Positions 4,847 to 25,427 of a stretch of 51,830 nucleotides of DNA are shown here, piece after piece (position 1 is the first letter of the stretch; the number at the start of each line of letters is the position of its first letter). This DNA comes from a virus, in the IMG/VR virus record IMGVR_UViG_3300033144_008177, positions 1 through 51,830 of that record; one strand, written 5' to 3'. The position numbers were made by a program, and so were the translations under genes. The notes beneath the pieces were generated by a model. The model searched no databases, was not told the DNA's origin, and was given only the letters and a program-made list of their open reading frames with translations.

Positions 4847-4999
4847 AAAACAGGGTTTATATAAAAGTATAAAAGTATAAAAATTTATTCGTGGTCGCGC
4901 CCACCGGATCTTAAACGACTGTCTATTTCCTCTACCTCCTGAACATCTACTTGAACTTGGTCTTCCGCTACGAGGAAGATCAGGAACATCAGATTCTTC

Positions 5000-6683
5000 A
5001 TTATAATCCACTCTCATATCGCTATAAGAGAATCAACAGAATTACCTAAACTACATAAAACTACGTTGTAATCCACTCTCATATTACTATGAGAGACATC
5101 CATCAGATTTGCAGTCTCTGGCAATTATTGGTTGTAATCCACTCTCATATTACTATGAAAGACATCAGCCTATCAGGCAGCAATAGATTTTGTTGTTGTA
5201 ATCCACTCTCATATTACTATGAGAGACATCATACTTTTGTTTTAGTGTAGGGAATCTTCTGTTGTAATCCACTCTCATATTACTATGAGAGACATCAGCA
5301 TTAGTAACGGACAGACTCATTATTATGTTGTAATCCACTCTCATATTACTATGAGAGACATCAGGGGTTGCCCATTTATCTGTCTTACTGCTGTTGTAAT
5401 CCACTCTCATATTACTATATGAGAGACATCAATATTGATGCTTGTCGCATCGGGAGTGAGGGTTGTAATCCACTCTCATATTACTATGAGAGACATCTAT
5501 TGCTATGGCCACTATGTTAAATGCTTTGTTGTAATCCACTCTCATATTACTATGAGAGACATCTGCCCAGAGTCGGGGTCTTTGACAGTTCCCGTTGTAA
5601 TCCACTCTCATATTACTATGAGAGACATCTCCGCTTGTAGACTTGGTTCGTGGTCGTCAGTTGTAATCCACTCTCATATTACTATGAGAGACATCAAATA
5701 TAGCGAGAGTGTCCTGCACGTCTTTGTTGTAATCCACTCTCATATTACTATGAGAGACATCCTGGTCTGTTTAGTGGAAGATCTAGGGTAGTTGTAATCC
5801 ACTCTCATATTACTATGAGAGACATCCGGCTTGAGTGAATATCAGCGAAGAGTTGTGTTGTAATCCACTCTCATATTACTATGAGAGACATCTTGTTTCA
5901 TAAATCGACTGTATCTACCAAGTTGTAATCCACTCTCATATTACTATGAGAGACATCTTCATCAACATCTTGCCCTGATCTTTGCAGTTGTAATCCACTC
6001 TCATATTACTATGAGAGACATCATCGTGTGATGACCTTATAAGGATAGACAAGTTGTAATCCACTCTCATATTACTATGAGAGACATCAAAACAAGAGAG
6101 AGACAGATAATGACTTGTGTTGTAATCCACTCTCATATTACTATGAGAGACATCTCGATGGGTGAGGAACCACAAACTTCCTATGTTGTAATCCACTCTC
6201 ATATTACTATGAGAGACATCATTGAAATAAATCTTGACGTAATAATGTTAGTTGTAATCCACTCTCATATTACTATGAGAGACATCTAAAGCTATATATT
6301 CCATCCCCTAATATCTGTTGTAATCCACTCTCATATTACTATGAGAGACATCGTTTATAGTAAAGTATCTGTCCTGCTGTCCGTTGTAATCCACTCTCAT
6401 ATTACTATGAGAGACATCAAATATTTTGACACATAGCCAGTTCTCCTTGTTGTAATCCACTCTCATATTACTATGAGAGACATCAAGGTGACAAAGGTGA
6501 AAAAGGCGAGCAGGGTTGTAATCCACTCTCATATTACTATGAGAGACATCAAAGTATAAGAACAGCAGGAACAAACTATGGTTGTAATCCACTCTCATAT
6601 TACTATGAGAGACATCAATAGAATATAACATGACCTGGAAAGAGTTCGTTGTAATCCACTCTCATATTACTATGAGAGACATC
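5000..6683 (-). CRISPR. CRISPR array: 25 near-identical 36-nt repeats plus 1 degenerate terminal repeat, 25 spacers of 28-31 nt
   Basis: Repeat on minus strand GATGTCTCTCATAGTAATATGAGAGTGGATTACAAC, with an 8-bp stem, GTAA loop and 11-nt 3' tail TGGATTACAAC like I-C. Repeats start at + 5065, 5131, 5195 ... 6581, 6648. Variants at 5131 (1 substitution), 5393 (2-nt insertion) and 5000 (degenerate) place the trailer at left and the leader at right. Confidence 0.98.
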
Positions 6684-6813
6684 TGTAGATTCATAACTAT
6701 ATTATCTACAGATGTTTATATTAAAAATATCAATTAAAAAATGCTTATTTCTGCACATTAAACTCCCCTGTACTTCCATTTTTCTATATTTAATTATAAA
6801 AGAACTCACTATA
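6684..6813 (-). promoter_or_regulatory. CRISPR leader
   Basis: AT-rich noncoding stretch between the cas3 stop and the first intact repeat. Degenerate repeats are at the opposite end. Confidence 0.7.
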
Positions 6814-9327
6814 TTACTCGACACTATGCCCCATTCTGATTAATATTTCTTTCATATATCCTAAGAAATCAGGATCATATTCTCCTGTCCAAACATTAAA
6901 TTCTTTAGGAGCCTTTATTTTTGCTTCTTTATACTTATCATTAGGAATTCTATCTTCATTCACAAAATCAATATTATCCTGGTAATCAGCTCTATCTAAC
7001 TTAGTAAAAAACATCTGAATACTATTCTCTGTCAACTCACGATATCTAACTATATCTTCATTGTCAATCTTAGCTATCACTTCTGGATCAACTACAATTG
7101 ATTTATATGAACGAGGAATAATTTTATATAAATCAGCGACTGAGCCAAAACAAAGTTGTTCTTCTTCAAATTCTATCTCTGTAAAATACTCTAGATCTTT
7201 ATTACGTTCTACTATCTCTCTTCTAATAGATTCAGTACAATATCCGTACCCAATACGATCAACATCGAAAAGATCATTATGTACTTTAATAGAAGCATTA
7301 AATGCAGGATTATTAGTAGTGCCCATTGCTTCATGATCCATATTAAATACAAACACATCGCAACATTCAATGTATTCATTTCCACGATTCACTCGACCAC
7401 CAAGTTGCAATAAACTTAAATGACAATTATTTTCTCTAAAACCAGTTCTGAATGAAAAATTAACTCCAGTTTCAATACATGATGTAGATACTAAAACCCA
7501 GTCATCATCAGTTCTATCTTTAAGTCTATTTTTAATAACTTTATATTTTGTCTTTCTATTTTTCGGTGTAAGAGCGGTAGATATATGTTCTACTTTTTCT
7601 CTTCCATATTGTAACCTTATATAATTAGCAAAAATAGCTGCCGATAAAACAGTATTAAATACTACAACTCTTGGTCCAGGTCTACTCATTACTACTTCTG
7701 CTAATTGTTGAAAACTATTAAACTGTTCCTCTATTCTTGAATAACTAACCCTACCAACCTCTAACTCGTTCATAACATGATTAGACTCACAAGATAAAAC
7801 TTCTTTTACTTCAATTTCGCATGATTTTAGTTGCTCTATTTCCCAAAATTTTACAGAAGATCCAGACATAAGAATAACTTTACATCCACAGTTATCTACC
7901 AAATATTTCAACCACCTCAAAGTTTGACGTAACATTTTTATAGGAACAGCAATATGAAACTCATCAATAATAATAACTCTACCAGTAAGTTGATGAAGTT
8001 TTCTTATTTTAGATGGATAATTACTAGCCATAGTCTCAAAAAACTGGACAACCGATACAACTTCAAAAGGACAATTCCATAAAGTACTGTAATGCTTTAA
8101 CAACTTATAATTAATACCTTCCTTTTGAGACCTTTCCCAATGTCTAGCGTCTTGGTAATGTTCCCCTATAACTTCTCCACTTTTTTCTCCAGGCAACATT
8201 AAAAAATCTTTGCTCTCTCTTATATTTTGTGTTAAAATATCATTGTATGGAGCCATCTTCACAACTCCTCTTAAACCATGCTCTCTACATAGTCTTAAAG
8301 CTAAATAATCACCAGAATGATTTTTTCCATAACCTGGAAAAGCATAAATTCCATAAAAATTGTGACCCAAACTTACTTCTTCACAATCTTTGTGTATAAG
8401 GCTTCTTACTCTATTTTTTTCTCTTTCTTTTTCTGTCTCAGCCAAAGGAAAATTATCGTACATCATCATATGATGTGTTAATCTTTCGTCTGCTCTTAAT
8501 GGAAATGTTATTACATTAGGAGCAATCCCACCATAATGACGAGAGGTATCCCCATGATCGCCCTCTACTAAACACGATAACATAAATCTTAAAAGCATAG
8601 AATGATCAAGTATTGGAATGTATAATGATTCTATACTTTTTTTACTGTTTTCAAAACATTTATAATGTCTTTCTAATAATTCAGATAATGTTTCATCTAC
8701 ATACTCTTTTACTGTTTTGTTTTTATCATCTACAACATGCTTATAATATGGATATTTTTTTAACATTTTGACATCGCTTCTGAGAATATCAATATTAGCA
8801 ACAATACTACCCAATGATGGATATAATTTCGCATCTCGTTCTTCTCTGTTCTCATTTAAAATTTTATTCAATATCCCAATATGATGTGCATCAATCAATA
8901 CAGCTGCAATAAGATAATTAATCCGAAGAGCAAGACTAAGACCTGATTTTTTTATCTCACTATATTTTTGAAGAAGAAAAGCAGAACCAGCATCAACATG
9001 ATTAAGCATACTTATTTTACTACCATTCTCATTATGATGCCTCTTCTTTATAATTTCTTGAGATACTAAATCCAATTTACCAAGATCATGATATTCCGCT
9101 GCTATTTCTAATACTTCCCTCGCTGCAGATATAACGCTACTATCCAATGACATATATTTTACCATTTCATCAAAACATCGCAAAGCTCTGTCTCTCACTT
9201 CGCTAGCATGTGAATAATAAGACTGAGTAAAATTAATCCCATTCTCTGGATCGTCTGAATGAGCAACATAATCAAACAACGTGTCCTCCGAAGAGGACAC
9301 GCTGTTGTTATTAATATGTTCTGACAT
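6814..9327 (-). CDS. cas3: Cas3 HD nuclease-helicase
   Basis: YVAHS..SH, HDLGK, AHH and SCLVEGDHGDT (HD domain); PGYGKN, IIIDEFH, MSGS, STSCIETGVN and QLGGRVNR (SF2 motifs). TAATG overlap with cas7. Confidence 0.93.
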   Translation of the reverse strand: MSEHINNNSVSSSEDTLFDYVAHSDDPENGINFTQSYYSHASEVRDRALRCFDEMVKYMSLDSSVISAAREVLEIAAEYHDLGKLDLVSQEIIKKRHHNENGSKISMLNHVDAGSAFLLQKYSEIKKSGLSLALRINYLIAAVLIDAHHIGILNKILNENREERDAKLYPSLGSIVANIDILRSDVKMLKKYPYYKHVVDDKNKTVKEYVDETLSELLERHYKCFENSKKSIESLYIPILDHSMLLRFMLSCLVEGDHGDTSRHYGGIAPNVITFPLRADERLTHHMMMYDNFPLAETEKEREKNRVRSLIHKDCEEVSLGHNFYGIYAFPGYGKNHSGDYLALRLCREHGLRGVVKMAPYNDILTQNIRESKDFLMLPGEKSGEVIGEHYQDARHWERSQKEGINYKLLKHYSTLWNCPFEVVSVVQFFETMASNYPSKIRKLHQLTGRVIIIDEFHIAVPIKMLRQTLRWLKYLVDNCGCKVILMSGSSVKFWEIEQLKSCEIEVKEVLSCESNHVMNELEVGRVSYSRIEEQFNSFQQLAEVVMSRPGPRVVVFNTVLSAAIFANYIRLQYGREKVEHISTALTPKNRKTKYKVIKNRLKDRTDDDWVLVSTSCIETGVNFSFRTGFRENNCHLSLLQLGGRVNRGNEYIECCDVFVFNMDHEAMGTTNNPAFNASIKVHNDLFDVDRIGYGYCTESIRREIVERNKDLEYFTEIEFEEEQLCFGSVADLYKIIPRSYKSIVVDPEVIAKIDNEDIVRYRELTENSIQMFFTKLDRADYQDNIDFVNEDRIPNDKYKEAKIKAPKEFNVWTGEYDPDFLGYMKEILIRMGHSVE

Positions 9328-10250
9328 TATACTAATGCCTCCGAATAAGTATTGCTTAACATCTCTACCTTAATATCTGGAAAAGCTTTCTTAATATCAT
9401 CTAAAGATTTCAAGTTATAATCATCCATAGAGATTGATGGAAGTGTAAGATCCGTTGAAGGTTTACAAAACTCAAATAATGTTGACTCATTAAATGAACC
9501 AAGAGGATTATCATGTTCAGCATGTACAATCTGAACTACTCTCACTCCGGACCTTGATGCAGCCGTAGAATTACTGAATGAATGCTTGATTAATTCCTTG
9601 AAGACATCAATATCCTGTTCAGTTGTACCAGTATAATGAGCTTTCGAAGGATTAATAACATATACACCTATGTACAGCCCATGCCTTACAACCTTATATC
9701 CAAAAGGAGCTATTGTCCCTTGACCTTGAGCCATAAGCTTTGATTCAAGAGGATTCCCCTTTGTGATTGTCTGATTAATAACCTCAATCGGAAGTAAAGA
9801 TACAAGAGGAGAAACAGAAACACAACCTGTCCTCTTAAAGTTTAAAGAATCTTTGCCTTTTGTTTCAAGAGCAGTAGTACCAAATACCCTCATATCCCAA
9901 AAACGCTTCAAAAGAGATTCTTCTCCCTCTTCCTTAACCATCTTAGACCAATGTTCTTTAGCCTCTATTGGCGAATTAACATCGTATCCTTTACAAGCAG
10001 ATTCCCAGATATGGAAACTATCATCGTCAAGACCCAACTTGCCTTGCAAATATTCCCAGGTAACTCCCTCATGATCCTCCAACAATTCCCTTGTACGATG
10101 CTTAAAACAAACTGGTGTAATAAGACCACACTCATCATTGGTAAGACGAGGCATATCATCCTCATCGGGATTACCATTAGGATTAGACAAAACTACTTCA
10201 ACTGCTACGATACCAAATGCTCGTTTGGCTAATTTTTTACTTTTCTTCAT
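9327..10250 (-). CDS. cas7: Cas7 (Csd2/Cas7c-like)
   Basis: SNPNGNPDEDDMPR, ITPVCFKHRTR and FWDMRVFG match the I-C Cas7 signatures NPNGDP..PR, DVCLKRKIR and FDVRTFG. Confidence 0.93.
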   Translation of the reverse strand: MKKSKKLAKRAFGIVAVEVVLSNPNGNPDEDDMPRLTNDECGLITPVCFKHRTRELLEDHEGVTWEYLQGKLGLDDDSFHIWESACKGYDVNSPIEAKEHWSKMVKEEGEESLLKRFWDMRVFGTTALETKGKDSLNFKRTGCVSVSPLVSLLPIEVINQTITKGNPLESKLMAQGQGTIAPFGYKVVRHGLYIGVYVINPSKAHYTGTTEQDIDVFKELIKHSFSNSTAASRSGVRVVQIVHAEHDNPLGSFNESTLFEFCKPSTDLTLPSISMDDYNLKSLDDIKKAFPDIKVEMLSNTYSEALV

Positions 10251-10251
10251 T

Positions 10252-10629
10252 TTAAATCTCCATTAAATATTCTAAAATAATTATATTTTTAGAAGAAGTG
10301 CTAACACAGCAATCTTCTTCACTATCCACTCTTTCGAGAACGTCATTAAGAAGTTTTGTAAACAACATCATTCTACCATAAGCAATTCTCCAATCATTAC
10401 TTCGTTTTTTTCTTTTGGCATCACAAAAACGAGCAAATGGATCTGCTAATTTTTGTAAAAATAATATACCATCTTTGGGTCTATTTAATACCATAGATAA
10501 TGACTTTCCCCCAATTAATTCTTTAGGAATATCATTAAGTTTATTGTGTGACTCATAATAATACATTTGCATATTATCAGCCTTTTTTAATAACTGTCCA
10601 ATTTTTCCACAAAATTCTTTATCAAACAT
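10252..10629 (-). CDS. cas11: Stand-alone Cas11-like small subunit
   Basis: Own RBS (AAAGAGGT-tatt-ATG), 125 aa and helical. Aligns by eye to the Cas8c C-terminus: GQLL/GQML, IPKELIGGK/MPTELTGTK, VLNRP/ALSNP. Confidence 0.75.
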   Translation of the reverse strand: MFDKEFCGKIGQLLKKADNMQMYYYESHNKLNDIPKELIGGKSLSMVLNRPKDGILFLQKLADPFARFCDAKRKKRSNDWRIAYGRMMLFTKLLNDVLERVDSEEDCCVSTSSKNIIILEYLMEI

Positions 10630-10658
10630 AATAACCTCTTTCTATATTATAATAACTT

Positions 10659-12617
10659 TTACTTATTTTGAAAATATCCTAATGCAATTAACATCCTATC
10701 GGTATCACTCCAATAATCAGAAAACTCATTATCTAAAATAACTCTAGATGCTTGTGCAAATAAATAATAATGATAATGACTCTTAGATTTTCCAGAAAGA
10801 CGATATTCAGCCACTCTCTTCGCTTTTGCTTTTGCTAAATATATTCTAGCATTAGTAAGAGCCAAATTCATAGCTCTCTCAGGATTAGATAAGGCTAAAT
10901 AAATATGTTTTGTACCTGTAAGCTCAGTAGGCATATTTTTGTCATCTCTTCCTTCAGATTTTAAAACACTTCTCTGTACTTTGCTAATACATGCCAACAT
11001 TTGACCAACCATATAAGGAACATTTTTTTCATAATCTTCCTTATAAATACCAAGTTGATACAGAACTTCTCCAAATGCTACGGGTAAACCAAAGATATCT
11101 AAACGAGAACTCTTTAAATTATACAACTTCCTATTCATAATTCTATTTGTTATATCAATCAATAAATTTATTTGATATTTCCCGAAAACATGAGCAATTT
11201 TTTTAGTTTCATTCTTATCACCCATAAACATTCTCACTATATTTTCTGTATTGATAAAATCACGAACCAATTCTTTACCAGCATCACAAGATGCACTTCT
11301 ATTCCATCTTTTGTTGGTAATTCTACGCATACTTTCAATGCTTATCTTTGAATACAAATTTTTCTTAACACCTTTTTTAACATAGATGCCAGTATATTCA
11401 CCATCATCATAATTATCCCATCCCTCTATCCATCGTTTAGAAAAAGTTACCAAATCTTTAATATTGATCATATCTGATAAAACCAAGCTCGAAGGTCCAT
11501 TTGATGGCACTCTAAAAATTAGAATATGAACTTTTTCATTATTAGCATAAGCACTACTACCTCTAATATTAGATATGATGCCAGAAGATTTCTCCTTAAC
11601 CTTTTCATCAATTTCTTTGTTAACCCTTTCTTGAGTTCCACCAATCTCTAACAACTCCTGCAAATCAGATAAAATTGTTTCTTTTATAGGAGCAAAAACA
11701 ATTGTTGCTGTTCTAGTACCATCCTTATTAGAATGTGAATCCCAATATAACCCCTTATTCTTACCTTTAGTTAGATATTGCATCTTTCCAAAAATAAATG
11801 CTTTTGAAGCTGGAGAAATTGGACAGGCATCATTCCCAGCAACATTGTAACTTCTATAACACTTAGAAAATGGATTCCTACTATACGAGTAAAATTTAGT
11901 TCTGTCTAAACTTAACTGCGGAAGAGATGTAGATTCTGAAAAACTATTACCAAAAATATCCGTTTTATCTCCTGAGCCACTCTCAGATACTACATCTTCT
12001 TCTATTTGATTCAAAGCATCACTAATAATTGTTATAATTTCAGTACTATTCACAGGATGTATATTAAGATCACTGTATTCTGTAATCTCTAAAGTGATAT
12101 ACATTTCATTAAGAGCATCCTTCTTGGTAAATTTTTTACTATCTTCTGACTCATCTGGTAGAATCTCTAATGATTTCTCTATAATTTCTTTTAAGAATTT
12201 TTCATGATTTTCTACTTCATTAATTCTCTCTGAAAGCAAAAAAAGTGATTCAGTTTCACTATCTCTAGTTAACAATTCTTGCAACATTGTATCCATTCTA
12301 TTAAATTTGCCAATAAATTTTACAACATCCTTTTCTTTTATTGTACCATCATCACCTAAAATATTTTTTATTTTAATAATTGGGTACTGATTATGTGCAT
12401 CCTTGTAGATATATGAATAAGTATTCCAAACTTCTGGGGCAACGAGATTTACCGAACTAATATTTCCATCAGCACCAATACACACTTTAAACTTAGGAGT
12501 CTTTGGTGATCTTGGACTAGGCGATATCATAGAATGCATCTGAACCTCACCTATGCCTAATTCTTCCATTTTATCTGCAATTAATTTCATTTCATTTAAC
12601 ATAACATAATTCTCCAT
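10659..12617 (-). CDS. cas8c: Cas8c (Csd1-like) large subunit
   Basis: Position after cas5 and size 652 aa. The C-terminal domain YMVGQMLA...ALSNP...RMLIALGYFQ resembles the I-C YxxGRLFA...AxxxP...FxLGYYxQ. The start may instead be Met6 (GGAG RBS). Confidence 0.8.
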   Translation of the reverse strand: MENYVMLNEMKLIADKMEELGIGEVQMHSMISPSPRSPKTPKFKVCIGADGNISSVNLVAPEVWNTYSYIYKDAHNQYPIIKIKNILGDDGTIKEKDVVKFIGKFNRMDTMLQELLTRDSETESLFLLSERINEVENHEKFLKEIIEKSLEILPDESEDSKKFTKKDALNEMYITLEITEYSDLNIHPVNSTEIITIISDALNQIEEDVVSESGSGDKTDIFGNSFSESTSLPQLSLDRTKFYSYSRNPFSKCYRSYNVAGNDACPISPASKAFIFGKMQYLTKGKNKGLYWDSHSNKDGTRTATIVFAPIKETILSDLQELLEIGGTQERVNKEIDEKVKEKSSGIISNIRGSSAYANNEKVHILIFRVPSNGPSSLVLSDMINIKDLVTFSKRWIEGWDNYDDGEYTGIYVKKGVKKNLYSKISIESMRRITNKRWNRSASCDAGKELVRDFINTENIVRMFMGDKNETKKIAHVFGKYQINLLIDITNRIMNRKLYNLKSSRLDIFGLPVAFGEVLYQLGIYKEDYEKNVPYMVGQMLACISKVQRSVLKSEGRDDKNMPTELTGTKHIYLALSNPERAMNLALTNARIYLAKAKAKRVAEYRLSGKSKSHYHYYLFAQASRVILDNEFSDYWSDTDRMLIALGYFQNK

Positions 12618-13257
12618 TTTCGATTTTCACATTTTGAACTGATGAGGGATTGTACTCACCTCTGTTAAGAGAATCAAAACAACATAGTGTCATTGAGGCT
12701 ATAATAAAATTAATATGCTCTTGAACTTTTGTATCTTCTCTGAATATGCCGACATAAGAAGCTAAAAATTCAGACAAACCTAAACATGGTGTTCTATAAT
12801 TTCTACTATTTTTTAGACGACGATTGAATTGTGCCTGATATGCATGGGCATGATTAATACCTTTATATCTTTTAGGGGTTGAAACAATCTCATCCGCCTT
12901 TATTACTTTTGCAAAAAGCCTATAACAAGGATTTACAAGAATTGTACTTTTTATTTGACAAGTATTATTTTTCTTAATTAATTCTGATTTACGAAGTTCC
13001 CCTCTATAATTAAATGCATAAGACTGATATCTTATTGGATTACAAATTTGAACTTTTACAGGAACAACAATAGCATTAGGCATATATAATATAGATTCAA
13101 ATATACCTTTTGCTGCTGAAAAAGTTGGGAAAGGATAACTCGTCTTCTCGCTCCCAGTATCAGGTCTAGCAAACATTGCAAATGGACCTGATATTTCCAT
13201 CGAAATAGAATAATGAACCCTACTACCTAATAACTTAATAATTTCTTCTGACTTCAT
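12592..13257 (-). CDS. cas5: Cas5 (Cas5d/Cas5c-like, likely pre-crRNA processing nuclease)
   Basis: ISGPFAMFARPD..EKTSYPFPTFSAAKGIFESI and PCLGLSEF match the I-C Cas5 signatures. RBS GGAGG. Confidence 0.93.
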   Translation of the reverse strand: MKSEEIIKLLGSRVHYSISMEISGPFAMFARPDTGSEKTSYPFPTFSAAKGIFESILYMPNAIVVPVKVQICNPIRYQSYAFNYRGELRKSELIKKNNTCQIKSTILVNPCYRLFAKVIKADEIVSTPKRYKGINHAHAYQAQFNRRLKNSRNYRTPCLGLSEFLASYVGIFREDTKVQEHINFIIASMTLCCFDSLNRGEYNPSSVQNVKIENGELCYVK

Positions 13258-13529: not shown

Positions 13530-14723
13530 TCATTTCTTCTTCCACACAAATATTGGTTCAGTATGAAACATCTTATCACCCTTACGATTAAATTCATTAT
13601 TACTTAATCTCATATGATATGTAGTTTCTAACTCCCAATCCTTTTCACAATACTTACACAAATCATCTGCTATCTTTTTCTTCTGTAAATTCTTTACATT
13701 CAATACTAATTTTCCATCATCTTTTAAAATTCTTTTACTCTCATCAACTATAACATATAAAAAATTCCTCAACCAATTCTCATACTCTTTGTGCTTACTA
13801 GAACTTTGAGAAATATTATCTGAATATATTTCCTGAGAATGATACGGAGGACTCGTAAACACTAAATCATACCTCTCTTTTATATTAGGCATAACCTCCT
13901 CAGCACACTCCTGATCGAATCTAAAGCGATAATTATAAACTCGACCCATAAACACATCATATTGTTTTGAAAAAAATGAAGCTATCCTGGAGTTCCCTAC
14001 AGCCGTTTCTCCAACAGGATCTATTCCATGATAAAATATATTCTTATTAGATGCGATACAACCAACTAATCTACCACCATATCCAGCACAAGGATCTAAA
14101 ACCTTACCATTCTCTGGACAATATCTATCATAAATAAATTTAGCTATCGTGGGTTTGTAATTAACTACACCTTTAGTTCCATTCCTCGTTTTTAAAATTC
14201 TTCTCATCCCCGCATGATTAGGAACTTTTTCCAACTCTAACCACCTATTTATACAATCTTTCAACTTTTCATCATCATTAAAAGTCTCAAAAGGAGAATT
14301 TGTTCCAATACTATAATATGCTTCCATCATATGAGGATGAAAATGATTCGCCAAATCTATTCCTTGAGGATTCATCTGTAAATGATTGTCTTCTAATAAT
14401 ACATTTTTACTATTTATTACTCTCTTCAATCTATTTTCTTTTTGAATATCATTTAATTTATTATGAGGAAATCCATTCTCCCTATAATAATGAAATAAAA
14501 GTTCCACAACTTCATCTTTTATTTCTTTATCCCCCTCTTTGTACATTCTCAGTAATTCCTTAAAATGAGAAGTACTTTCAAGATTTTCCCAATGAGAAAA
14601 AACACAATGACGAATATAATTACTTTTGCTCTTACCAAATAACTTCGATTTAATTCGAATTGAATTATGATCAGAAGATGTTACCCGCAAAATAATGTTA
14701 TCTGTTTTTTTTATTTTTGGCAT
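13530..14723 (-). CDS. DNA amino-methyltransferase (m4C/m6A) with N-terminal ribbon-helix-helix domain
   Basis: Motif I VLDPCAGYGGR and motif IV FTSPPY. The N-terminal IILRVTSSDHNSIRIKSKLFGKSKSNYIRHCV has an RHH pattern. Confidence 0.85.
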   Translation of the reverse strand: MPKIKKTDNIILRVTSSDHNSIRIKSKLFGKSKSNYIRHCVFSHWENLESTSHFKELLRMYKEGDKEIKDEVVELLFHYYRENGFPHNKLNDIQKENRLKRVINSKNVLLEDNHLQMNPQGIDLANHFHPHMMEAYYSIGTNSPFETFNDDEKLKDCINRWLELEKVPNHAGMRRILKTRNGTKGVVNYKPTIAKFIYDRYCPENGKVLDPCAGYGGRLVGCIASNKNIFYHGIDPVGETAVGNSRIASFFSKQYDVFMGRVYNYRFRFDQECAEEVMPNIKERYDLVFTSPPYHSQEIYSDNISQSSSKHKEYENWLRNFLYVIVDESKRILKDDGKLVLNVKNLQKKKIADDLCKYCEKDWELETTYHMRLSNNEFNRKGDKMFHTEPIFVWKKK

Positions 14724-14753: not shown

Positions 14754-14782
14754 ATTTTATAATATTTATTTTCACTTTTCAA
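14754..14782 (-). promoter_or_regulatory. SigA-type promoter TTGAAA-N17-TAAAAT (methyltransferase)
   Basis: 17-nt spacer. 30/34 nt identical to 15888-15921. Confidence 0.65.
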
Positions 14783-15789
14783 GAAAGTTTTCCAGATTCT
14801 ACCATTTTTTTAATCTTAACAATATGGTTTGGTAAAAATCTAGGTCTACCCTTCTCACTCAATCTAAAACAAGGTATTTTGCCTATTTTAACCATATATG
14901 CTAATTTTTGATAATTTATATCTAATTCTTCTGCGACTTCTTTCATCCTCTTGCTCTCAAATCTCCAAAATGGTATTTTATCAAATTTATAATTATAACA
15001 TTTGATAGGACTTTTTTCCCCAATAAGATTATAGAAGGCAGGAATACCCCTTGAATTAATTCTAATACGATTCTCATTATTCCTATAGCATTTGATACCA
15101 ATTTGTTGTAATTTATCTACTAACATCTCAACCTTAACCTTTGAAAACCCGTCTGTAGATAATCGAGTAGCAATCGTATTATTTTTTACGACCACAGATC
15201 CATCACCAAGATACCACATAAGAACAGAATTTTTAGTTATTCTTACATCTTCTGGAGGCTGTTTAATTCTTTGCCCATTTTTATTTTCTGGATACCATCT
15301 TAAATATTGTTTATAAATATCTGGATGATTACTAGTACTACCGCTAAACATAAATCCTTGCTTCATACTTTTTGCCTTATGTTTTTTTACACTTGAACTC
15401 AATTTCTTAAAAGGTTCCATTAAATAACTACAAAATTCTTCATATTCTACACCACAACGGAATCTGGCTATAAGATTATTTATACTTCTTTTATCAAAAT
15501 TTATTCCCCCATCTCCTAATAAGAAACCATCAATAAATTCTATCATATCATCTTGTATATAATTTACTTTATAATCTAAAGAACATGGAAATAAATTTCT
15601 TCTTGCTTCTGAACGATCTCTTCCAATTCCTAATCTTTCAGCATACTTATGCAAAGTCCCATTATGAATATTGTATCCTTGCTCTAATAACATTTTTCTT
15701 ATTTTAGGATAAGACATTTTTTGGTTAATATAATATTCTTCAAAAAATTCTTTTGTTAACAGATTAGTGTAATGTGGCTCTTCTCTCAT
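14779..15789 (-). mobile_element. Free-standing double-motif LAGLIDADG homing endonuclease with HTH-like ends
   Basis: FIDGFLLGDGGI and LMWYLGDGSV motifs. C-terminal MKEVAEELDINYQKLAYMVKIGKIPCFR is an excisionase/MerR-type HTH. RBS AGGAG. Confidence 0.85.
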
Positions 15790-17623: not shown

Positions 17624-20600
17624 TTATTTACTAAAAACTTTTCTTAATTGAGTTGTAGTATCATCACTTGCTATTTTATTCTGTTTTTCAAGAGTAAATA
17701 ATCCTTGCAACTTATCTGACAACTCTTCATTAGCATTTCTCATGCTACTATTCTCATTTATTTGCACGGCTTGAGATATACCGTCTGAAACAGTGTCAAG
17801 TCCTTTTTGACCAGCGAAAATCGCTTTTTCAAAATCTCTTATTTGAGCAGGCTTATAAGTTTTGAGTTCATTAACTTTACTCTGTAGCTCTGATGCATCT
17901 ATTTTATTAGCTGCTATCATTTTTCCAGCTACCCTATAAGCTTCGGACTCAGAATCGCTATTTGCGATTACTGTACCTTTATCTTTTGTTGTTTTTTCTG
18001 AATCTAATTCTTCTTTACCCATTTGGGCATTACCTGTGAACACTTCTGGTTGATCTGCTGGCTCTTTTGGAGCTGAACCAACTGTCTCACTTTCATGTCC
18101 GATAAGTGACTCAGTTGCTCCGCCTTCTACACTATTAGGTTCGTCAGCAGTGAACTTATCTTCTTTTCCTATTGTGCTTCCATCTCCAGCATCAATTGGC
18201 TGAATATCTGGATCATCCGCTACAGGCTTCTTTGGTTCCATTTTTTTAGCAATTCTATCTGCAAGAGCAGATAAACTGTCTTTAGAGGTTCCAAAACCCT
18301 TCATATGATAAAGATCATCATCTGTTGAAGCCAACTCTGTTTTACCTTGTCCATCGGTTCCACCAGTAAATCTATTATCTCCACCACCCAATCCAACTTC
18401 TTTCTCATGACCCATTGTAGCATCATCAGAAGGAACAACTGGAAGAGGTTTATCTTGTGGATTAAGATCACTTGGTTCTTGACCCATTGTAGCATTGTCT
18501 CTTGGTACACTTGGTTTTTGTGGAGTTCTAATGGTTTCACTTTCATGACCCATTTCACTTCCACCTTCACCAGCTGTATAAGTTCCTATATCGGGACTGT
18601 CTTGTGCTTTCTCTTGTGAAATTTCTTTTTCTCCCGCAGTTTTATTAATAGCTGCGATAACAGAAGAAAGATCCATTTGAGGCTTTCCAACTTGTCCAAT
18701 TGCTCCACTCATAATTAAGGCTTCCTTATAATCCATACCATCATTATCATTTACATTTCCAGCTTCTTTTTCAAAATCCTCTTTTTTTTCTGCAAAAGCT
18801 GATCCGCCACCTGTTGGTTCTCCATTAACTGTAATCTTAACAGATCCGCCCCCGCCATAAGAATCATCACAAGGCTCTCCAATACCGCCCATGCCTTCTG
18901 GTGTTTCGCTATCAAACATTGTCATATCTTTACCTTCTTCTATAGGGGCTTCTTCGCCTTCCACAGGCACTTCTCCACCTTCCATAGAATTCATATCTCC
19001 ACCATCTAAATCACCTGGCGCAACTTCTTCTATTGGAGCTTCATCACTTATTCCGCCTTCATCACCTATTCCGCCTTCATCACCTATTCCGCCTTCATCT
19101 ATTCCTTCTTCTCCGATTCCACCCGTTGCTTCATCCACTGCAGAACCAAGTTGTTCAGCAACATCTGATGGAAGCTCGATTGTTACAGTACCACCATCAA
19201 TGCCTTCATCAATATTTTCGAATGGATCTTCTTCTTCTCCCATTCCTATATCATCAACAGGTTCTCCCATAGAATCTTGCTCTTCATCAATAATCTGTGA
19301 TGTAACACTAAGTTGATCTGCAAAAATATAATCAGATTGAACCATGGCAGATTTCAATGTTGTACAAATTACTGCTGATTCTCTTAATGAATAACCATTT
19401 CTAACTTGATCTGTAATACACTCTTCATCTCCATCACAATCTGACCAAATCGAAGCAACTTTTGTTGCTAATTTAGTAGTATAAACATCAGCCTTTTTAA
19501 GTCTATTACATACAGACTCAGCAAGATTTTCACCTTCATCTGGTCCGCTCAAACAGATAGCATCTTTTCCAAATCTACGTGCTAATTTCTCAATACAAGA
19601 TTCGACTGGGAATTTATCTCCATAGTTGCCATAAGCAAGTTTATAATCTTCTACTACTGAACCTTCTTTAGCAGCAACTTTCATCAGTGCTCCAGACTTA
19701 TTCATTTTTACAATAATATCAACTTTATCTTTAAGCTCTAACTCATTAAATTTAGCTTCTGTAAGTTCTACAGAAGAAAGAGCTTTAATAAATCTTTGTT
19801 TTGCTCTCGAACAAGATGGGCATTCTACTCCAGCGACTTTTGGTTTCCATTCCCACTGTGCATAGGCCTTGTTGCCATCTTTAGAAACAATGCAAGAAAC
19901 TTTATATTTTGTACCAGTGTCTAAACATACATACTGCTCATCATCCATTTTAAGAGTATTTATAGTTCCAGTTATTGGACTGACTGATCCAAGTATAATA
20001 TTTTGACTTCCAATTTTCTTAAGTGCTTCTGGAAGTAAACGAGTATAAGCAGCCATAGCTGGCATTCCAGCTTCTCCTGCCATTCCTCCACCCATACCTG
20101 GCTCTTCTGCTCCAAGCTCTGGCTCTTCAGTAGGCATTTCAAAACCTTCTCCCTCTCCAAGTCCACCAAGCTCTTCAGCCTCATCACCAGTAGGAGTTAC
20201 ACCTTCCCACTTAGTAACATTAACTTCAACTTTATATGTCATTTCTGAACCACAGTTATTACATTTTCCTTTTCCAGAAATGATATCAACATCATCACTT
20301 CCACAAACTGGGCAAATAGATCCTGGAGGTTTTGCCTCAAGATTTTCTTCATCGAAGCCACCCTCTTCATCCGCCATTGGATCTTCTGTGAAATTCTCCA
20401 TTGGAGGAACTTCTGCTCCAGGCGATCCTGGTAATGCTGCTCCTGCTCCAGGTGCTTGTGCTGCTCCACCTTGACCACCCATTTCTCCACCCATCATTTG
20501 AGCTTGTTTAATCTCAGACTTTGCTGCTGCTATAGGGTTCATTGAAGGTCTATTCTGATCTTGTCCTTGACCCATTCCCATTCCTGCTTGATCTCCACCT

Positions 20601-23600
20601 TCCATAGGTTTCATATCATTTGTTTCTTCACCGTTATTATCAGCTTCGATATCTTCAACTGGTCCTTCAATAATATCTCCTATATCATCAGGACAAACAG
20701 TTTCTTCTGCTCCTTCTTGGATATCAATAAGCAGTTCTCCACCATCACCAACTTCTATCTTAATAATAGCAGAAGCGTCTACACCGTCATCGTCAATCAT
20801 TTCTTGTGCGAGTTTTTTAACTCCTGCTAAGAAAGCAACTTTATCTGTAATAGGGGCATCAACATCACTTACAGATGCTCTGATCTGATATTTGCCATCT
20901 TCTGGTCTATCCATTATTTTAAGAGCTTTATCAAAACCATCTGCTTTAGACATAATAGTTTTAGTACTATCATCTTCCATTCTTTTAGCAACTTTTTCTT
21001 GTACTTTCTTATATGCTGTTTTGTTATTTGTAGCATGATAAATAGAATCAAAAAGATCTTCTGCTCTCATGGCAAACTGACCATTGTCAGAAGCTGCCAA
21101 TATAAGAGCATCTATTCCTGAGATTTTATTATGAGTAGCTGCTGTCTTGCAGAAATAAGCTATATTTTGAGTTAACGCTTCTTTGTCATCTGCCTTTTGA
21201 GGAAGAGAATTAACAACAGCCAAAAAAGCTGCTTTATCTTTTGTAGCACTATCGTCATTAATAATAGTAGCTGCCTTCACTATCTCATTAGGAGATTTTT
21301 TATATTTAACAACAGCATCAACAATTGTATTAATTGCTGTTTTCATAAGAGATACGGAATAATCTGAACTAGCCCATCTCTTAAGTCCATCAGTCATAGT
21401 CATATTTCTAAGTTGATCTTCAGTAATAGTTTCAACATTACCAATAAATTTATGTTTACTAAGAAGGTCTCTTATTTGAGCTTGAGTTATAGATTCAGTA
21501 TAATCTTCTGGCAAATCACCAGCAATATCTCGGCTAAAATCATCCCATTGTTTTTCTGTAATAACATCTGGGTATTCAACAAAATGAGTTATAGCACTAC
21601 CCAGAGCACTTTCTGATTTAAGTTGATCTTCGGTAGTTGTCTCATATGTTCCAAGTCGAACTTGAGGACTATCACTAGTAGTATCGTTAGATTGCTCTGT
21701 TCCGCCAATCTGTTCTTTACTTTCAGTAATACTTTCATAAACGGTTTCTGTTCTGGGGTGAAGATTTTCCTGTTTCTTCTCCAATTGCTTCTCCGTAATC
21801 ACTTCTAGATTTTCAGTTCCCGCTGCTGTTTTTGTGGTTTTATCAGTAGCCATAATTGCTCCTATTTCATTATTATTTTGTTTTTCTTGTATTTTATGCA
21901 CTCTTTGCTTCAAAGACGATACCTTATTACTTACATTTTCACTTATTTTAGAAAAATCCTCTTTTTTATTTGAAGATTTCTGAGGAAGAGTTACATTTCC
22001 TAGCCCTCCAAGGTCCTCTTGGGAGCTAGATCCACCTCCTGGAGCAACCATTTGCGGCTCAGGGGTTTGTACTGGTTCTGGGAATGGTGCTGGCACTTCA
22101 GTCTCTTCACCTGCCGTTACTGGTGGAGATGGCAACGCTGCATAGCCCATCTCAACAAGCTCATCTAAAATTCCCTGAACATCTGCCATAGCCTTAACTA
22201 GATCAGAAACATATTCCATTGAAACATTATCTTTTTGTTTCAACATACTTTTAACAACCATTTCCATCTCATTCATGCTACTCTTAAGAGAGTTAATTTC
22301 ATTAACCCCTCCTAATTTCTCAATAGCTTTAGCAGTTGCTGATTCTTTAGTAAATTCGCTACTAGCGTCTTTAACTAATCTATTTATAACTTTAGAAAAC
22401 TCAGCAACCTTTTTCTGAAGCTCTGGAACATGAAGAACACAAGTAACCCCGCACTCATGACATGCTGGGTTGACAACAAATGAATTTTCAATAAATTTCA
22501 ATCCATAATTATGTTCATAAATCATCTGTTCTGCATGTTTTATACTTTTACTTTCTTCTTTCTCACATCCACACAATGGGCATTTTTCATCTGTATCTGT
22601 TTTGCTCTGATGATAAGAACAGTTTATACTGCCATTATATTTTCTATTTTTTCTATTAGAAACGTGAGTACAATACTCATCTGATGTATTTGCCATATTG
22701 TGACAAACTGAACAGAGGCTATATTCTACAGAACAATTTTTTACAACAACACCTTCTACGATATAAGAATGATCTTCCTCTACTTCTATATTGTAAACAG
22801 GTTCTGTATTATATTCTTTCTCAATTTTTTTAATAGGCATTACAATATAATCATCTGCTTGCCTAAACCAAGAATCTCTATATTCTCCCTCTACTATTCT
22901 ATCAATACCTAATACTTCGTTTAATTTTTGAGATTCCTTACACCCAAAAACTAAAATCCAATATGGTTTTTTCCCATTTTTTATCGCTCTTTCTTTTATA
23001 TATTCAGTCGTCGAATATATCCCTAATCTAGATGTAATAAATTTCATTTGATTATGTAGGGTCTCAGAACAAGTTGTCCCACTAATATTTTGATATAATT
23101 TTCCATTCTGAGCATAAATATTTCTACAAGTTCCATCTCCATTTATCCACGCAGCTAAAATATGTTTTTGAATTTCTGGATCCCAAAATAAACATTTTTT
23201 ATTTAATGTTTTTGTATGAGAATATTCCCCACAATAATTAAAGAACCACTGAGCGACATCTCTACCATATAAACGGATCATAAGAATATCTCTATCGGGT
23301 CTTTCTTGTATTTTTGGTTCTAATGTCCCATCAAAGACTTTTCTTAATAAACCTATAACTTCTTTTCCTAAAGTATCTTTTTCTTTTGATAAACAAAAAT
23401 TAAATTCTACAGCAACTCTATTACCCTTATATTTAAGATAACTACCTTCTGCTAAAAAATAACCTATTAACCTCGCTTTGTCAGATGTAGCATCGGAATC
23501 TTCAACAATTTCTTTAGAAATGGGAAAAGAAACCATATCTCCTTCTTTGAGGTCTTCTGATTTTTTCCATTCAAAATCGAACTGATCTAATTCACCATTT

Positions 23601-25016: not shown

Positions 25017-25427
25017 TTAACCCTTTACGTGCCTAGGTATTTCAACATCAGCCAAATCGTCTAGGGTATAATTAGGAGCACCTCTTGGAAACTTTATTCC
25101 CCACTTCTCAACAGCATGACTGAGAGCGGCTACTGAGCTAAAAAAATATTCTCCAGCAGGAGCATAAACTTTAGCTTTTGGATCATCTGGTAATTTTTTA
25201 ATTCCCGCAAAAAATCTTTTCTTCATTTCTTTAGTAAGAGATGGCCCAACTATAATAAAATAATCAGAATCAGTTGTATAATCATGACCTTCCCATCTTA
25301 TATAAGCCAAAGGTCCTATTGTTTTATTAAAACGTTCTCTTAATTTCTCAGATCTTTCATGGAATCTTTGTTCCCATTTTATTCCTCGATCTTTAATTCT
25401 TTTTCTACCTGCTGTTTTAATCTCCAT
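25017..25427 (-). CDS. Hypothetical protein
   Basis: 136-aa ORF overlapping the portal stop. Confidence 0.6.
   Translation of the reverse strand: MEIKTAGRKRIKDRGIKWEQRFHERSEKLRERFNKTIGPLAYIRWEGHDYTTDSDYFIIVGPSLTKEMKKRFFAGIKKLPDDPKAKVYAPAGEYFFSSVAALSHAVEKWGIKFPRGAPNYTLDDLADVEIPRHVKG

What the first reader, a model, noticed from the sequence alone, without database searches (positions are those of the whole stretch)
10252..11030. Stand-alone cas11 gene created by duplication of the Cas8c C-terminal domain
Seen: a 125-aa ORF with its own RBS sits between cas8c and cas7 and aligns to the last ~120 aa of Cas8c (IGQLLKKADNMQ..DIPKELIGGKSLSMVLNRP versus VGQMLACISKVQ..NMPTELTGTKHIYLALSNP; both end in a hydrophobic helix with L(E/G)Y). 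Just before the Cas8c C-terminal domain (LGIYKEDYEKNVPY), the SD-like AAGGAAG is followed by an out-of-frame ATG rather than an in-frame start. Established: in type I-C, Cas11 is made from an internal start inside cas8c and is identical to its C-terminus. Inference: here the internal start was replaced by a diverged separate gene, giving an I-E-like layout and a Cascade whose small subunits can evolve independently, for example to evade anti-CRISPRs or host-subunit mixing.
Basis: partly seen in the sequence, partly recalled or inferred. Interest (0 to 1): 0.85.

Follow-up and report, generated by a model that had tools for sequence, protein, structure and literature searches.

The report
Separate Cas11 gene, phage type I-C
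A phage-borne type I-C-like CRISPR operon makes its small "belly" subunit (Cas11) from its own gene, not from the hidden internal start inside cas8c that all its bacterial relatives keep; the layout appears undescribed for this subtype but is a modest variation on a known theme.

Summary
The 125-aa ORF (10252-10629, minus strand) lies between cas8c and cas7 in a phage operon ordered cas5c-cas8c-ORF-cas7-cas3-CRISPR, and it has its own Shine-Dalgarno (SD) sequence.

**It is a Cas11c homologue.**
- It matches the PADLOC Cas8c profile at its C-terminal end (E 5e-8).
- Its family profile aligns to the Cas8c C-terminal domains (CTDs) of the same loci (hhalign E 8e-7, 110 columns).
- Its AlphaFold model (pLDDT 94.5) matches only type I-C Cas11c and Cas8c-CTD chains at the top (Z 9.7-11.3; next fold 7.5).

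**The layout is conserved.** An exhaustive search found 14 clusters, all stand-alone proteins of 95-142 aa. Every locus I inspected, 11 besides the window, has the same gene order.

**The internal start is lost.**
- All 32 nearest bacterial Cas8c keep the canonical internal start: an invariant (Y/F)M with an embedded AAGGAGG.
- All 11 phage-clade Cas8c lack that Met.
- Cas8c still keeps its own Cas11-like tail.
- A complex model docks the ORF onto that tail (ipSAE 0.75 against 0.00 in controls).

**Open points.**
- In-lineage duplication is the simplest origin, but the tree neither shows nor rejects it (AU p 0.34).
- The anti-CRISPR and subunit-mixing rationale is untested.

I found no description of a separate cas11 in type I-C. 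Earlier notes in this scan describe comparable separate cas11 genes in I-B and I-D on other DNA.

The parts
10252..10629 (-). Stand-alone cas11 (125 aa), the small subunit of the phage type I-C-like Cascade
   Evidence: PADLOC Cas8c C-terminal match, E 5e-8. AlphaFold2 pLDDT 94.5, five helices. Best structural matches are type I-C Cas11c 8dex_J (Z 11.3, rmsd 2.6, 105 aligned) and Cas8c CTDs. 14 homologous clusters, all stand-alone. dN/dS about 0.16 against L001, with dS saturated.
10630..10658 (-). cas8c-cas11 spacer carrying the small gene's own Shine-Dalgarno (AAGAGG, 10635-10640)
   Evidence: Read directly. All 7 loci examined have a purine-rich SD-like motif before the small gene (GGAG-type in most). 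Mean duplex energy with the anti-SD is -7.8 kcal/mol.
10659..11054 (-). Retained Cas11-like C-terminal domain of Cas8c (residues 522-652 plus the stop codon), paralogue of the small gene
   Evidence: AlphaFold2 pLDDT 87.8. Top 10 structural matches are all type I-C Cas11c or Cas8c CTD, Z 9.1-10.8, next fold 4.3. Profile matches D. vulgaris Cas11c sequences in the PDB at E 3e-5.
11028..11042 (-). Relic of the canonical internal cas11c start: SD-like AAGGAAG (11036-11042), then TAT-GAA (Y529-E530) where the bacterial relatives have TAT-ATG
   Evidence: Alignment with 32 bacterial Cas8c, which all have (Y/F)M at this site with AAGGAGG about 6 nt upstream. The phage clade has E/K/T/I/R here in 11 of 11.
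10659..12617 (-). cas8c (652-aa ORF; real start probably M6 at 12602)
   Evidence: PADLOC Cas8c E 4.5e-46. Pfam Cas_Csd1 only sub-threshold. The database protein and homologues start at MLNEL.
12592..13257 (-). cas5c
   Evidence: PADLOC Cas5c E 6.4e-24; Pfam Cas_Cas5d E 7.7e-7.
9327..10250 (-). cas7 (Csd2-like)
   Evidence: Pfam Cas_Cas7 E 3.4e-37; PADLOC Cas7b/c.
6814..9327 (-). cas3 (HD nuclease plus helicase)
   Evidence: PADLOC Cas3c E 7.4e-75; NCBIfam cas3_HD and cas3_core domains.
4986..6716 (-). CRISPR array, about 26 copies of a 36-nt repeat spaced about 66 nt apart; the repeat ends in GTGGATTACAAC on the cas strand
   Evidence: the repeat finder. The same cas3-array arrangement, the same repeat 3' end and differently sequenced self-complementary stems occur in L002 and L006.

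Best explanation
The 125-aa ORF is a genuine, separately encoded Cas11 small subunit of a phage-borne, adaptation-less type I-C-like Cascade.

**Origin (inferred).**
- It is an old paralogue of the Cas8c C-terminal domain.
- Most simply, it arose by tandem duplication of the 3' part of cas8c that, in canonical systems, doubles as the nested cas11c gene. The duplicated segment would have started at the internal ribosome-binding site.
- After the duplication the internal Met and SD inside cas8c decayed.

**Consequence.**
- Cas8c now supplies only the tethered cap of the minor filament.
- The free subunits, probably two per complex, come from the new gene. It is translated from its own SD within the polycistronic cas5-cas8c-cas11-cas7-cas3 message.
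- The free Cas11 stacks on the Cas8c tail along the Cas7 backbone. As in solved type I-C Cascades, it would stabilise the R-loop by holding the non-target strand.

**Shown:** homology, fold, conserved synteny, the gene's own SD, and loss of the canonical internal start.

**Inferred:** assembly into Cascade, stoichiometry, the duplication route, and absence of any internal Cas8c product.
For: **Homology to the Cas8c CTD.**
- PADLOC Cas8c profile, E 5e-8, at its C-terminal end.
- hhalign of the ORF family against the clade's own CTDs: E 8.1e-7, 110 columns.
- The ORF-family HMM hits the last ~120 residues of bacterial Cas8c over its full length, E down to 1e-13. That E-value applies to a small local ORF set.

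**Fold.**
- Model pLDDT 94.5.
- Foldseek's top 9 matches are all type I-C Cascade chains.
- VIA second look: Cas11c 8dex_J at Z 11.3, rmsd 2.6, 105 of 117 residues aligned; the next unrelated fold is at 7.5.
- An unbiased search of 48,161 chains gives Cas8c CTDs as the top 3, Z 9.7-9.9.
- ORF residue 3 aligns to Cas11c residue 7, so the gene starts within a few residues of the canonical internal Met.

**A real, conserved gene.**
- 14 clusters at 50% identity, all 95-142 aa.
- The order cas5-cas8c-ORF-cas7(-cas3-array) recurs in L001, L002, L003, L005, L006/7, L008/9, L075, L076 and the P0007 contig. L004 and L074 are compatible fragments.
- Each small gene examined has a purine-rich SD-like motif upstream.
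- dN/dS is about 0.16.

**Loss of the internal start.**
- 32 of 32 bacterial relatives have an in-frame ATG after Y/F with AAGGAGG upstream; mean anti-SD duplex energy is -10.4 kcal/mol.
- None of the 11 phage-clade Cas8c has Met at that site. Across the 7 with full DNA analysis, none has a canonical start codon there and the mean energy is -4.5.
- L002 has no ATG, GTG or TTG anywhere from 30 codons before to 15 after the site.

**Cas8c keeps its own tail**.

**Complex model.**
- Full-length Cas8c plus the ORF: ipSAE 0.75, best of 3 controls 0.00.
- That mark was reached by 58 of 80 solved complexes and 2 of 110 mismatched pairs.
- The runs agree in at least 94% of contacts, and the partner's pLDDT is 86.
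- Contacts fall on Cas8c 580-632 (its CTD) and ORF 18-48 plus 111-125.
- Solved type I-C Cascades exist, so this pass may partly reflect likeness to them.

**Co-divergence.** The (L006, L008) pair is recovered in both the stand-alone and the CTD subtrees.
Against: - There are no protein or expression data.
- The window and three relatives (L001, L074, L075) have an in-frame Met 6 codons past the canonical site, and the window has another at +10. A-rich leaders can sometimes start translation without an SD, so a shorter internal product cannot be excluded.
- L006 keeps a good SD (GGAGAGG) before an ATA codon at the canonical site.
- The ML tree does not place the stand-alone family and the phage CTDs as direct sisters. 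The separating branch has only 72/79 support.
- The ORF family's profile does not reach the PDB type I-C sequences by sequence alone.
- Helical bundles give middling Z-scores easily. The case rests on the gap to the next fold and the full-length coverage, not on Z alone.
Confidence: 0.85

Rival explanations
1. Dual supply. The stand-alone Cas11 is a real subunit, but in this phage cas8c still also yields an internal Cas11-like product, from M536/M540 or a non-AUG codon. The minor filament would then mix two kinds of small subunit.
For: In-frame ATGs at 11010-11012 and 10998-11000. A relic SD, AAGGAAG, lies 23 nt upstream of M536. The equivalent Met is also present in L001, L074 and L075.
Against: There is no SD within 5-10 nt of either ATG. 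The Met is absent in 7 of 11 clade members, and L002 has no start codon in the whole region. A product from M536 would lack the first ~8 residues of helix 1 relative to the ORF and to canonical Cas11c.
Confidence: 0.08
2. The small protein is not a structural Cascade subunit. It would be a Cas11-derived regulator or decoy, for example an anti-CRISPR-like mimic aimed at a host type I-C Cascade, or a modulator of the phage's own complex.
For: Cas-derived anti-CRISPRs that mimic Cas8 tails or Cas11 are on record (lead from scan notes e1-5452242 and e1-5794985, not checked here). The element is a phage.
Against: The gene sits inside the effector operon, tightly packed between cas8c and cas7, in every locus inspected, never alone. 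The internal Cas11 source has been lost from cas8c in 11 of 11 members, and according to a statement in PMC11899642 citing Tan et al. [quoted passage not shown] The family co-diverges with Cas8c.
Confidence: 0.04
3. Same function, different origin. The small gene was captured by recombination from another type I-C lineage's cas8c 3' end or nested cas11c, not duplicated within this lineage.
For: In the ML tree the stand-alone clade attaches on the other side of a branch from the phage CTDs. The ORF family is nearer to bacterial CTDs (18.9% identity) than to the CTDs of its own loci (14-15%). Its HMM scores some bacterial CTDs higher than the phage CTD HMM does.
Against: The separating branch is weak (72/79). 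Forcing sisterhood costs only 1.67 lnL units, AU p 0.34. Two paralogues that both diverged from one ancestor are expected to be further from each other than either is from the outgroup. Both stems are very long (2.78 and 3.86), so placement is unreliable.
Confidence: 0.3

Closest known systems
Cas11c of canonical type I-C (D. vulgaris, N. lactamica; PDB 7KHA, 8DEX, 8G9S), made by internal in-frame translation of cas8c from M489 (bioRxiv 10.1101/2020.04.18.045682; PMC7684278)
   Same: Same fold over the whole length (Z 9.7-11.3). Same size. The N-terminus lies within a few residues of the canonical internal Met. Detectable sequence homology to Cas8c tails. Predicted to stack on the Cas8c CTD.
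   Different: It is encoded by its own gene with its own SD. It is only about 14% identical to the Cas8c tail of its own locus, not 100%. The nested start inside cas8c is gone.
Cse2/Cas11e of type I-E and Csa5/Cas11a of type I-A: small subunits encoded by separate genes
   Same: Separate small-subunit gene placed between the large-subunit gene and cas7. The role is presumably the same, in the minor filament.
   Different: No Pfam or NCBIfam Cse2 or Csa5 match at E up to 0.1. The structural neighbours are type I-C chains, not I-E; T. fusca Cse1 CTD reaches only Z 5.6. Here the large subunit also keeps a full Cas11-like tail.
Separate cas11 genes in some type I-B and I-D loci
   Same: The same evolutionary theme: a subtype that normally nests cas11 inside the large-subunit gene has lineages with a stand-alone copy. 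One I-B case was likewise read as a copy of the Cas8 tail, not a split.
   Different: Different subtype and an unrelated sequence family. Here the loss of the nested start is documented against 32 bacterial relatives that retain it.
Phage 'type I-C variant' loci lacking Cas1/Cas2 in huge phages (Al-Shayeb et al. 2020, PMC7162821)
   Same: Phage-borne and adaptation-less, with Cas5d-like processing and no Cas6.
   Different: Those loci are described as having a helicase in place of Cas3, and no small-subunit gene is mentioned. This locus has an HD-helicase Cas3. I could not compare sequences.

Membership tests
Cas11c (type I-C small subunit) | Helical bundle of about 120 aa superposable on solved Cas11c | tested here: met
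   pLDDT 94.5. 8dex_J at Z 11.3, rmsd 2.6, 105 of 117 aligned, covering model residues 3-125. An unbiased search puts type I-C Cas8c CTDs first.
Cas11c (type I-C small subunit) | Sequence homology to the C-terminal domain of Cas8c | tested here: met
   PADLOC Cas8c E 5e-8; hhalign E 8.1e-7; HMM hits on 32 bacterial Cas8c tails.
Cas11c (type I-C small subunit) | Produced by internal in-frame translation of cas8c and identical to its C-terminus | tested here: not met
   It is a separate gene, about 14% identical to its own Cas8c tail. The canonical Met and SD are absent from cas8c. This is the point of difference: it works like Cas11c and is homologous to it, but it is not the nested-gene product.
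Cas11c (type I-C small subunit) | Assembles in about two copies into the Cascade minor filament next to the Cas8c CTD | not testable with these tools
   Only a prediction is available: ipSAE 0.75 against a best control of 0.00, with contacts on Cas8c 580-632. Stoichiometry was not addressed.
Type I-C CRISPR-Cas | Effector genes cas5c, cas8c and cas7 (Csd2) with no cas6, plus an HD-helicase cas3 | tested here: met
   PADLOC Cas5c 6.4e-24, Cas8c 4.5e-46, Cas7 3.5e-39, Cas3c 7.4e-75. All NCBIfam type I-C equivalog scores fall below their curated cut-offs, so this is a divergent lineage.
Type I-C CRISPR-Cas | Canonical order cas3-cas5-cas8c-cas7-cas4-cas1-cas2 | tested here: not met
   The order here is cas5-cas8c-cas11-cas7-cas3-array. 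The ORFs adjoining the operon and array give no sign of cas1, cas2 or cas4, but the rest of the window was not profile-searched. The record is a fragment, CheckV 12% complete.
Type I-C CRISPR-Cas | Repeat with a 3' hairpin and an 11-nt handle ending in ATTGAAAC-like sequence | tested here: inconclusive
   The 36-nt repeat ends in GTGGATTACAAC on the cas strand and contains a hairpin. The likeness to the canonical handle rests on my own recall, not on a tool comparison.
Cse2 / Cas11e (type I-E) | Match to Cse2 family profiles or fold | tested here: inconclusive
   No Pfam or NCBIfam hit at E up to 0.1. No Cse2 chain appears among the listed structural matches. Absence from the lists does not exclude distant kinship.
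Cas-derived anti-CRISPR (Cas11 or Cas8-tail mimic) | Orphan gene outside a cas operon, usually in an acr/aca context | tested here: not met
   The gene is always embedded between cas8c and cas7 in the loci inspected, 11 besides the window.

The most novel reading that the evidence does not exclude
This clade would be a distinct type I-C variant in which duplication freed the tethered Cas8c tail and the free small subunit from having to share one sequence. The two then specialised, falling to about 14% identity, and now form an obligate hetero-filament. That would make the phage's Cascade unable to exchange small subunits with a host type I-C Cascade. It would also give the phage independent control of Cas11 dosage. 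This is a natural experiment that separates the two roles of the Cas8c C-terminus.
Probability: 0.3. Interest if true: 0.6.

Novelty: new variant of a known kind. Interest (0 to 1): 0.5.

Why it matters
**Evolutionary point.**
- Type I-C is the textbook minimal Cascade. Its small subunit is hidden inside cas8c and is, by construction, identical to the Cas8c tail.
- This phage clade shows the other solution within the same subtype: a duplicated, separately translated and strongly diverged cas11, with the nested start lost.
- It gives a concrete example for the question raised by McBride et al. of whether large-small subunit fusions can revert to two genes.

**What it allows experimentally.**
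- It separates the requirements of the tethered cap from those of the free subunits.

**Practical points.**
- Annotation pipelines will call these loci 'I-C without Cas11' and label the small gene hypothetical. Pfam and NCBIfam find nothing in it.
- Anyone moving such compact phage systems into other hosts must include this gene.

It does not change how Cascade is thought to work.

Tried and rejected
**Searches that found nothing.**
- Sequence searches of the ORF and of Cas8c against PDB chains.
- The ORF-family profile against the PDB. The Cas8c-tail profile, by contrast, reached D. vulgaris Cas11c at E 3e-5.
- Scans of IMG/VR viral contigs with Cas8c and with the ORF alignment found no relatives.
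- tblastn of Cas8c against GenBank phages gave no match.
- The word-indexed protein search found only one relative each for the ORF and for Cas8c. The exhaustive HMMER search was needed to find the family.
- The PF09709 genome search found only the window's own sub-threshold hit and nothing in the 14 control genomes, so I could not fetch D. vulgaris-type Cas8c that way.

**Analyses that were uninformative.**
- The phylogeny could not settle duplication against capture.
- Net charge and pI give no sign of specialisation: stand-alone mean +5.6, phage CTD +8.4, bacterial CTD +4.0.
- Identity comparisons show no extra acceleration of either paralogue beyond the general phage-bacterium divergence of Cas8c.
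- dS is saturated for most locus pairs.

**Rejected readings.**
- Spurious ORF: rejected by conservation, the gene's own SD and the confident fold.
- Gene fission of cas8c: rejected because Cas8c keeps a complete tail.
- L074, which first looked like a locus without cas8c, is a scaffold gap. Its 5' 287 codons match the Cas8c profile at E 5.5e-94.
Full report
**Setting.**
- The window is a fragment of a phage genome: an IMG/VR virus record, estimated by CheckV to be 12% complete.
- PHROGs profiles identify a major head protein (E 7.7e-62), a portal protein and a large terminase subunit.
- The minus strand, between the head and tail-fibre-like genes, carries a compact CRISPR-Cas unit:

| Element | Coordinates |
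|---|---|
| cas5c | 12592-13257 |
| cas8c | 10659-12617 |
| 125-aa ORF | 10252-10629 |
| cas7 | 9327-10250 |
| cas3 | 6814-9327 |
| CRISPR array, about 26 copies of a 36-nt repeat | about 4986-6716 |

- Profile searches assign the four large genes to a divergent type I-C lineage. PADLOC gives Cas5c 6.4e-24, Cas8c 4.5e-46, Cas7 3.5e-39 and Cas3c 7.4e-75.
- All NCBIfam type I-C models score below their curated cut-offs.
- The ORFs adjoining the operon and array give no sign of cas1, cas2 or cas4; the rest of the window was not profile-searched.

**The observation.**
- It has its own AAGAGG 5 nt before the ATG, and it ends 1 nt before the cas7 start.
- Pfam and NCBIfam find nothing in it.
- The PADLOC Cas8c profile matches ORF residues 8-97 to profile positions 533-618 of 658, E 5e-8.
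- BLASTP against the window's own Cas8c aligns it to residues 529-608: 27% identity over 84 aa, E 4e-4.
- The AAGGAAG motif (11036-11042) and the out-of-frame ATG (11030-11032, spanning codons Y529/E530) are as described.

**Is the ORF a real gene?**
- An exhaustive HMMER search of 1.84 billion representatives returned 14 clusters. All are 95-142 aa stand-alone proteins, and none is a long Cas8c.
- I looked up the contigs for eleven of the fourteen clusters.
- The order cas5-cas8c(626-696 aa)-small gene-cas7(-cas3) recurs in L001, L002, L003, L005, L006/L007, L008/L009, L075, L076 and the contig carrying P0007.
- L004 and L074 are fragments compatible with that order. In L074 the apparent absence of cas8c is a scaffold gap.
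- In the seven loci analysed for this, the small gene has a purine-rich SD-like motif upstream, GGAG-type in most.
- L002 and L006 also carry an array right after cas3. It has the same repeat 3' end (GTGGATTACAAC) and self-complementary stems of different sequence.
- Against L001 the small gene has dN/dS of about 0.16, no higher than cas5 or cas8c, although dS is saturated.

**What is it?**
- With the 14-sequence alignment, AlphaFold2 gives a five-helix bundle at pLDDT 94.5.
- Foldseek's nine best PDB matches are all chains of type I-C Cascade. E-values are weak (0.12-1.2) but probabilities are 0.72-1.0.
- The VIA second look gives Cas11c 8dex_J at Z 11.3 (rmsd 2.6, 105 of 117 aligned, model residues 3-125). 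Cas8c C-terminal domains score Z 9.7-11.0. The first unrelated bundle scores 7.5.
- A search that does not depend on Foldseek, over 48,161 representative chains, again puts three type I-C Cas8c tails first, at Z 9.7-9.9 and full length. Generic four-helix bundles follow at 7.6 or below and cover only residues 1-107.
- The ORF's residue 3 aligns with Cas11c residue 7, so the gene begins within a few residues of the canonical internal Met.
- The family profile aligns to the Cas8c tails of the same loci over 110 columns (hhalign probability 91.6, E 8.1e-7), including the terminal LEY/LGY helix.
- Cas8c keeps its own tail. The model of residues 522-652 (pLDDT 87.8) matches only type I-C Cas11c or Cas8c CTD chains at Z 9.1-10.8, with the next fold at 4.3.
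- The tail's profile also reaches D. vulgaris Cas11c by sequence, E 3e-5.
- The small gene is therefore an additional paralogue, not the result of splitting cas8c.

- A scan of one genome per species with the Cas7 alignment gave 63 bacterial and archaeal loci. Their Cas7 is at most 35% identical to the window's.
- In those loci cas8c (about 670-770 aa) runs up to cas7 with no small gene between. Both the stand-alone profile and the tail profile hit the last ~120-150 residues of Cas8c.
- All 32 Cas8c with a usable match carry an invariant (Y/F)M at the start of that domain.
- At the DNA level the ATG is preceded by AAGGAGG-like sequence about 6 nt upstream, formed by conserved K-E codons. Mean anti-SD duplex energy is -10.4 kcal/mol.
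- This is the internal Cas11c start that McBride et al. describe as the highly conserved M489 of D. vulgaris (bioRxiv 10.1101/2020.04.18.045682).
- At the aligned site the phage-clade Cas8c have E, K, T, E, E, I, R and, in four further loci, E, E, K, E. That is 0 of 11 with Met.
- In the seven analysed at DNA level the SD has decayed to a mean of -4.5 kcal/mol.
- In the window the site reads K-E-D-Y-E, which explains the surviving AAGGAAG and the out-of-frame ATG.
- A Met 6 codons downstream occurs in only 4 of 11 members and has no SD.
- L002 has no ATG, GTG or TTG anywhere from 30 codons before to 15 after the site.
- So the clade has lost the canonical nested start. A weak, lineage-specific internal product in this particular phage is not excluded.

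**Does it join the complex?**
- A complex model of full-length Cas8c with the ORF scored ipSAE 0.75, against 0.00 for the best of three controls.
- In the tool's calibration that mark was reached by 58 of 80 solved complexes and 2 of 110 mismatched pairs.
- The runs agree in at least 94% of contacts, and the partner's pLDDT is 86.
- The contacts lie on Cas8c 580-632, within its Cas11-like tail, and on ORF residues 18-48 and 111-125.
- This is what a Cas8c-tail/Cas11 minor filament would look like. But type I-C Cascades have been solved, so the pass may partly reflect that likeness. It is a model, not a measurement.

**Origin.**
- In a tree of 53 tails and stand-alone proteins, the stand-alone family (14) and the phage tails (7) are each monophyletic at 100/100, on very long stems (2.78 and 3.86).
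- They attach close together but not as direct sisters. The separating branch has 72/79 support.
- Forcing them together costs 1.67 lnL units, AU p 0.34.
- Mean identities:

| Comparison | Mean identity |
|---|---|
| Stand-alone vs bacterial tails | 18.9% |
| Phage tails vs bacterial tails | 19.2% |
| Stand-alone vs phage tails | 14-15% |

- This pattern is expected if both copies diverged from one ancestor. It is also compatible with capture from another lineage.
- The (L006, L008) pair appears in both subtrees, so the two genes have co-diverged since before the clade radiated.
- Tandem duplication from the nested ribosome-binding site to the stop codon is the simplest route. It fits the very short junctions, in which the cas8c stop is followed almost at once by GGAG. 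It remains an inference.
- Neither paralogue shows acceleration beyond that of the Cas8c N-terminal part. Charge does not distinguish them either.

**Comparison with what is known.**
- The papers I could search state that I-A and I-E encode Cas11 separately, whereas I-B, I-C and I-D make it by internal translation.
- The 2025 classification update mentions no type I-C variant with a separate cas11.
- The huge-phage paper describes a phage type I-C variant without mentioning a small subunit.
- Earlier notes of this scan report stand-alone cas11 genes in I-B and I-D loci of other genomes, one described as already catalogued. The general phenomenon is therefore not new.
- For type I-C I found no precedent.

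**Verdict.**
- This is a new variant of a known kind. It is well documented by comparison and of moderate interest to CRISPR specialists.
- Its mechanism is fully expected from canonical Cascade biology.
- The proposed selective advantages remain untested.

Noticed in passing
window 12602-12617: The longest cas8c ORF starts at 12617 (MENYVM...). The database copy is 647 aa and all homologues start at the MLNEL that corresponds to M6 (12602), so the true start is probably 12602.
   Followed up: partly
window 13530-14723 (-); L006 305-1384; L007 388-1467: An N6/N4 DNA methyltransferase gene lies directly upstream of cas5 in the window, where it has a NikA/RHH-like N-terminus. The same arrangement occurs in the related loci L006 and L007, so the methylase-cas block may travel together.
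   Followed up: no
window 14779-15789 (-): A LAGLIDADG homing endonuclease with a C-terminal MerR-type HTH sits between the major head gene and the methylase/cas block (Pfam E 4.3e-14).
   Followed up: no
window 17624-24409 (-) and 25417-28803 (-): The 2261-aa protein next to the head gene appears, from reading the translation only, to contain an intein-like insert. The 1128-aa portal protein has an internal stretch (residues 387-527) that matches a PHROG labelled thymidylate synthase, which may also be an inserted element.
   Followed up: no
L002 7610-8105; L006 8044-8875; window 4986-6716: The repeats of the three arrays share the ends (GRTGT... and ...GAGTGGATTACAAC), but their self-complementary stems differ in sequence. 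Spacing is 65-66 nt in all three, so spacers are about 30 nt, shorter than I recall for canonical type I-C.
   Followed up: partly
L022, L035, L050, L034, L023 (bacterial cas8c): The stand-alone Cas11 profile gives a second, partial hit (profile positions ~52-92) about 60 residues upstream of the true C-terminal domain in many bacterial Cas8c. This could be a degenerate internal repeat of part of the bundle.
   Followed up: no
L038 and L044: A MAG labelled Heimdallarchaeota carries this bacterial-type I-C cas8c-cas7 on two contigs. One has a full 725-aa Cas8c. The other has only a 172-aa open frame covering the Cas11 part, which could be an assembly variant, a pseudogene or a second case of a short form.
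   Followed up: no
L006 cas8c codon 557: At the lost internal-start site this relative keeps a strong SD (GGAGAGG) followed by ATA. This could be a recent loss or a rare non-canonical start.
   Followed up: no
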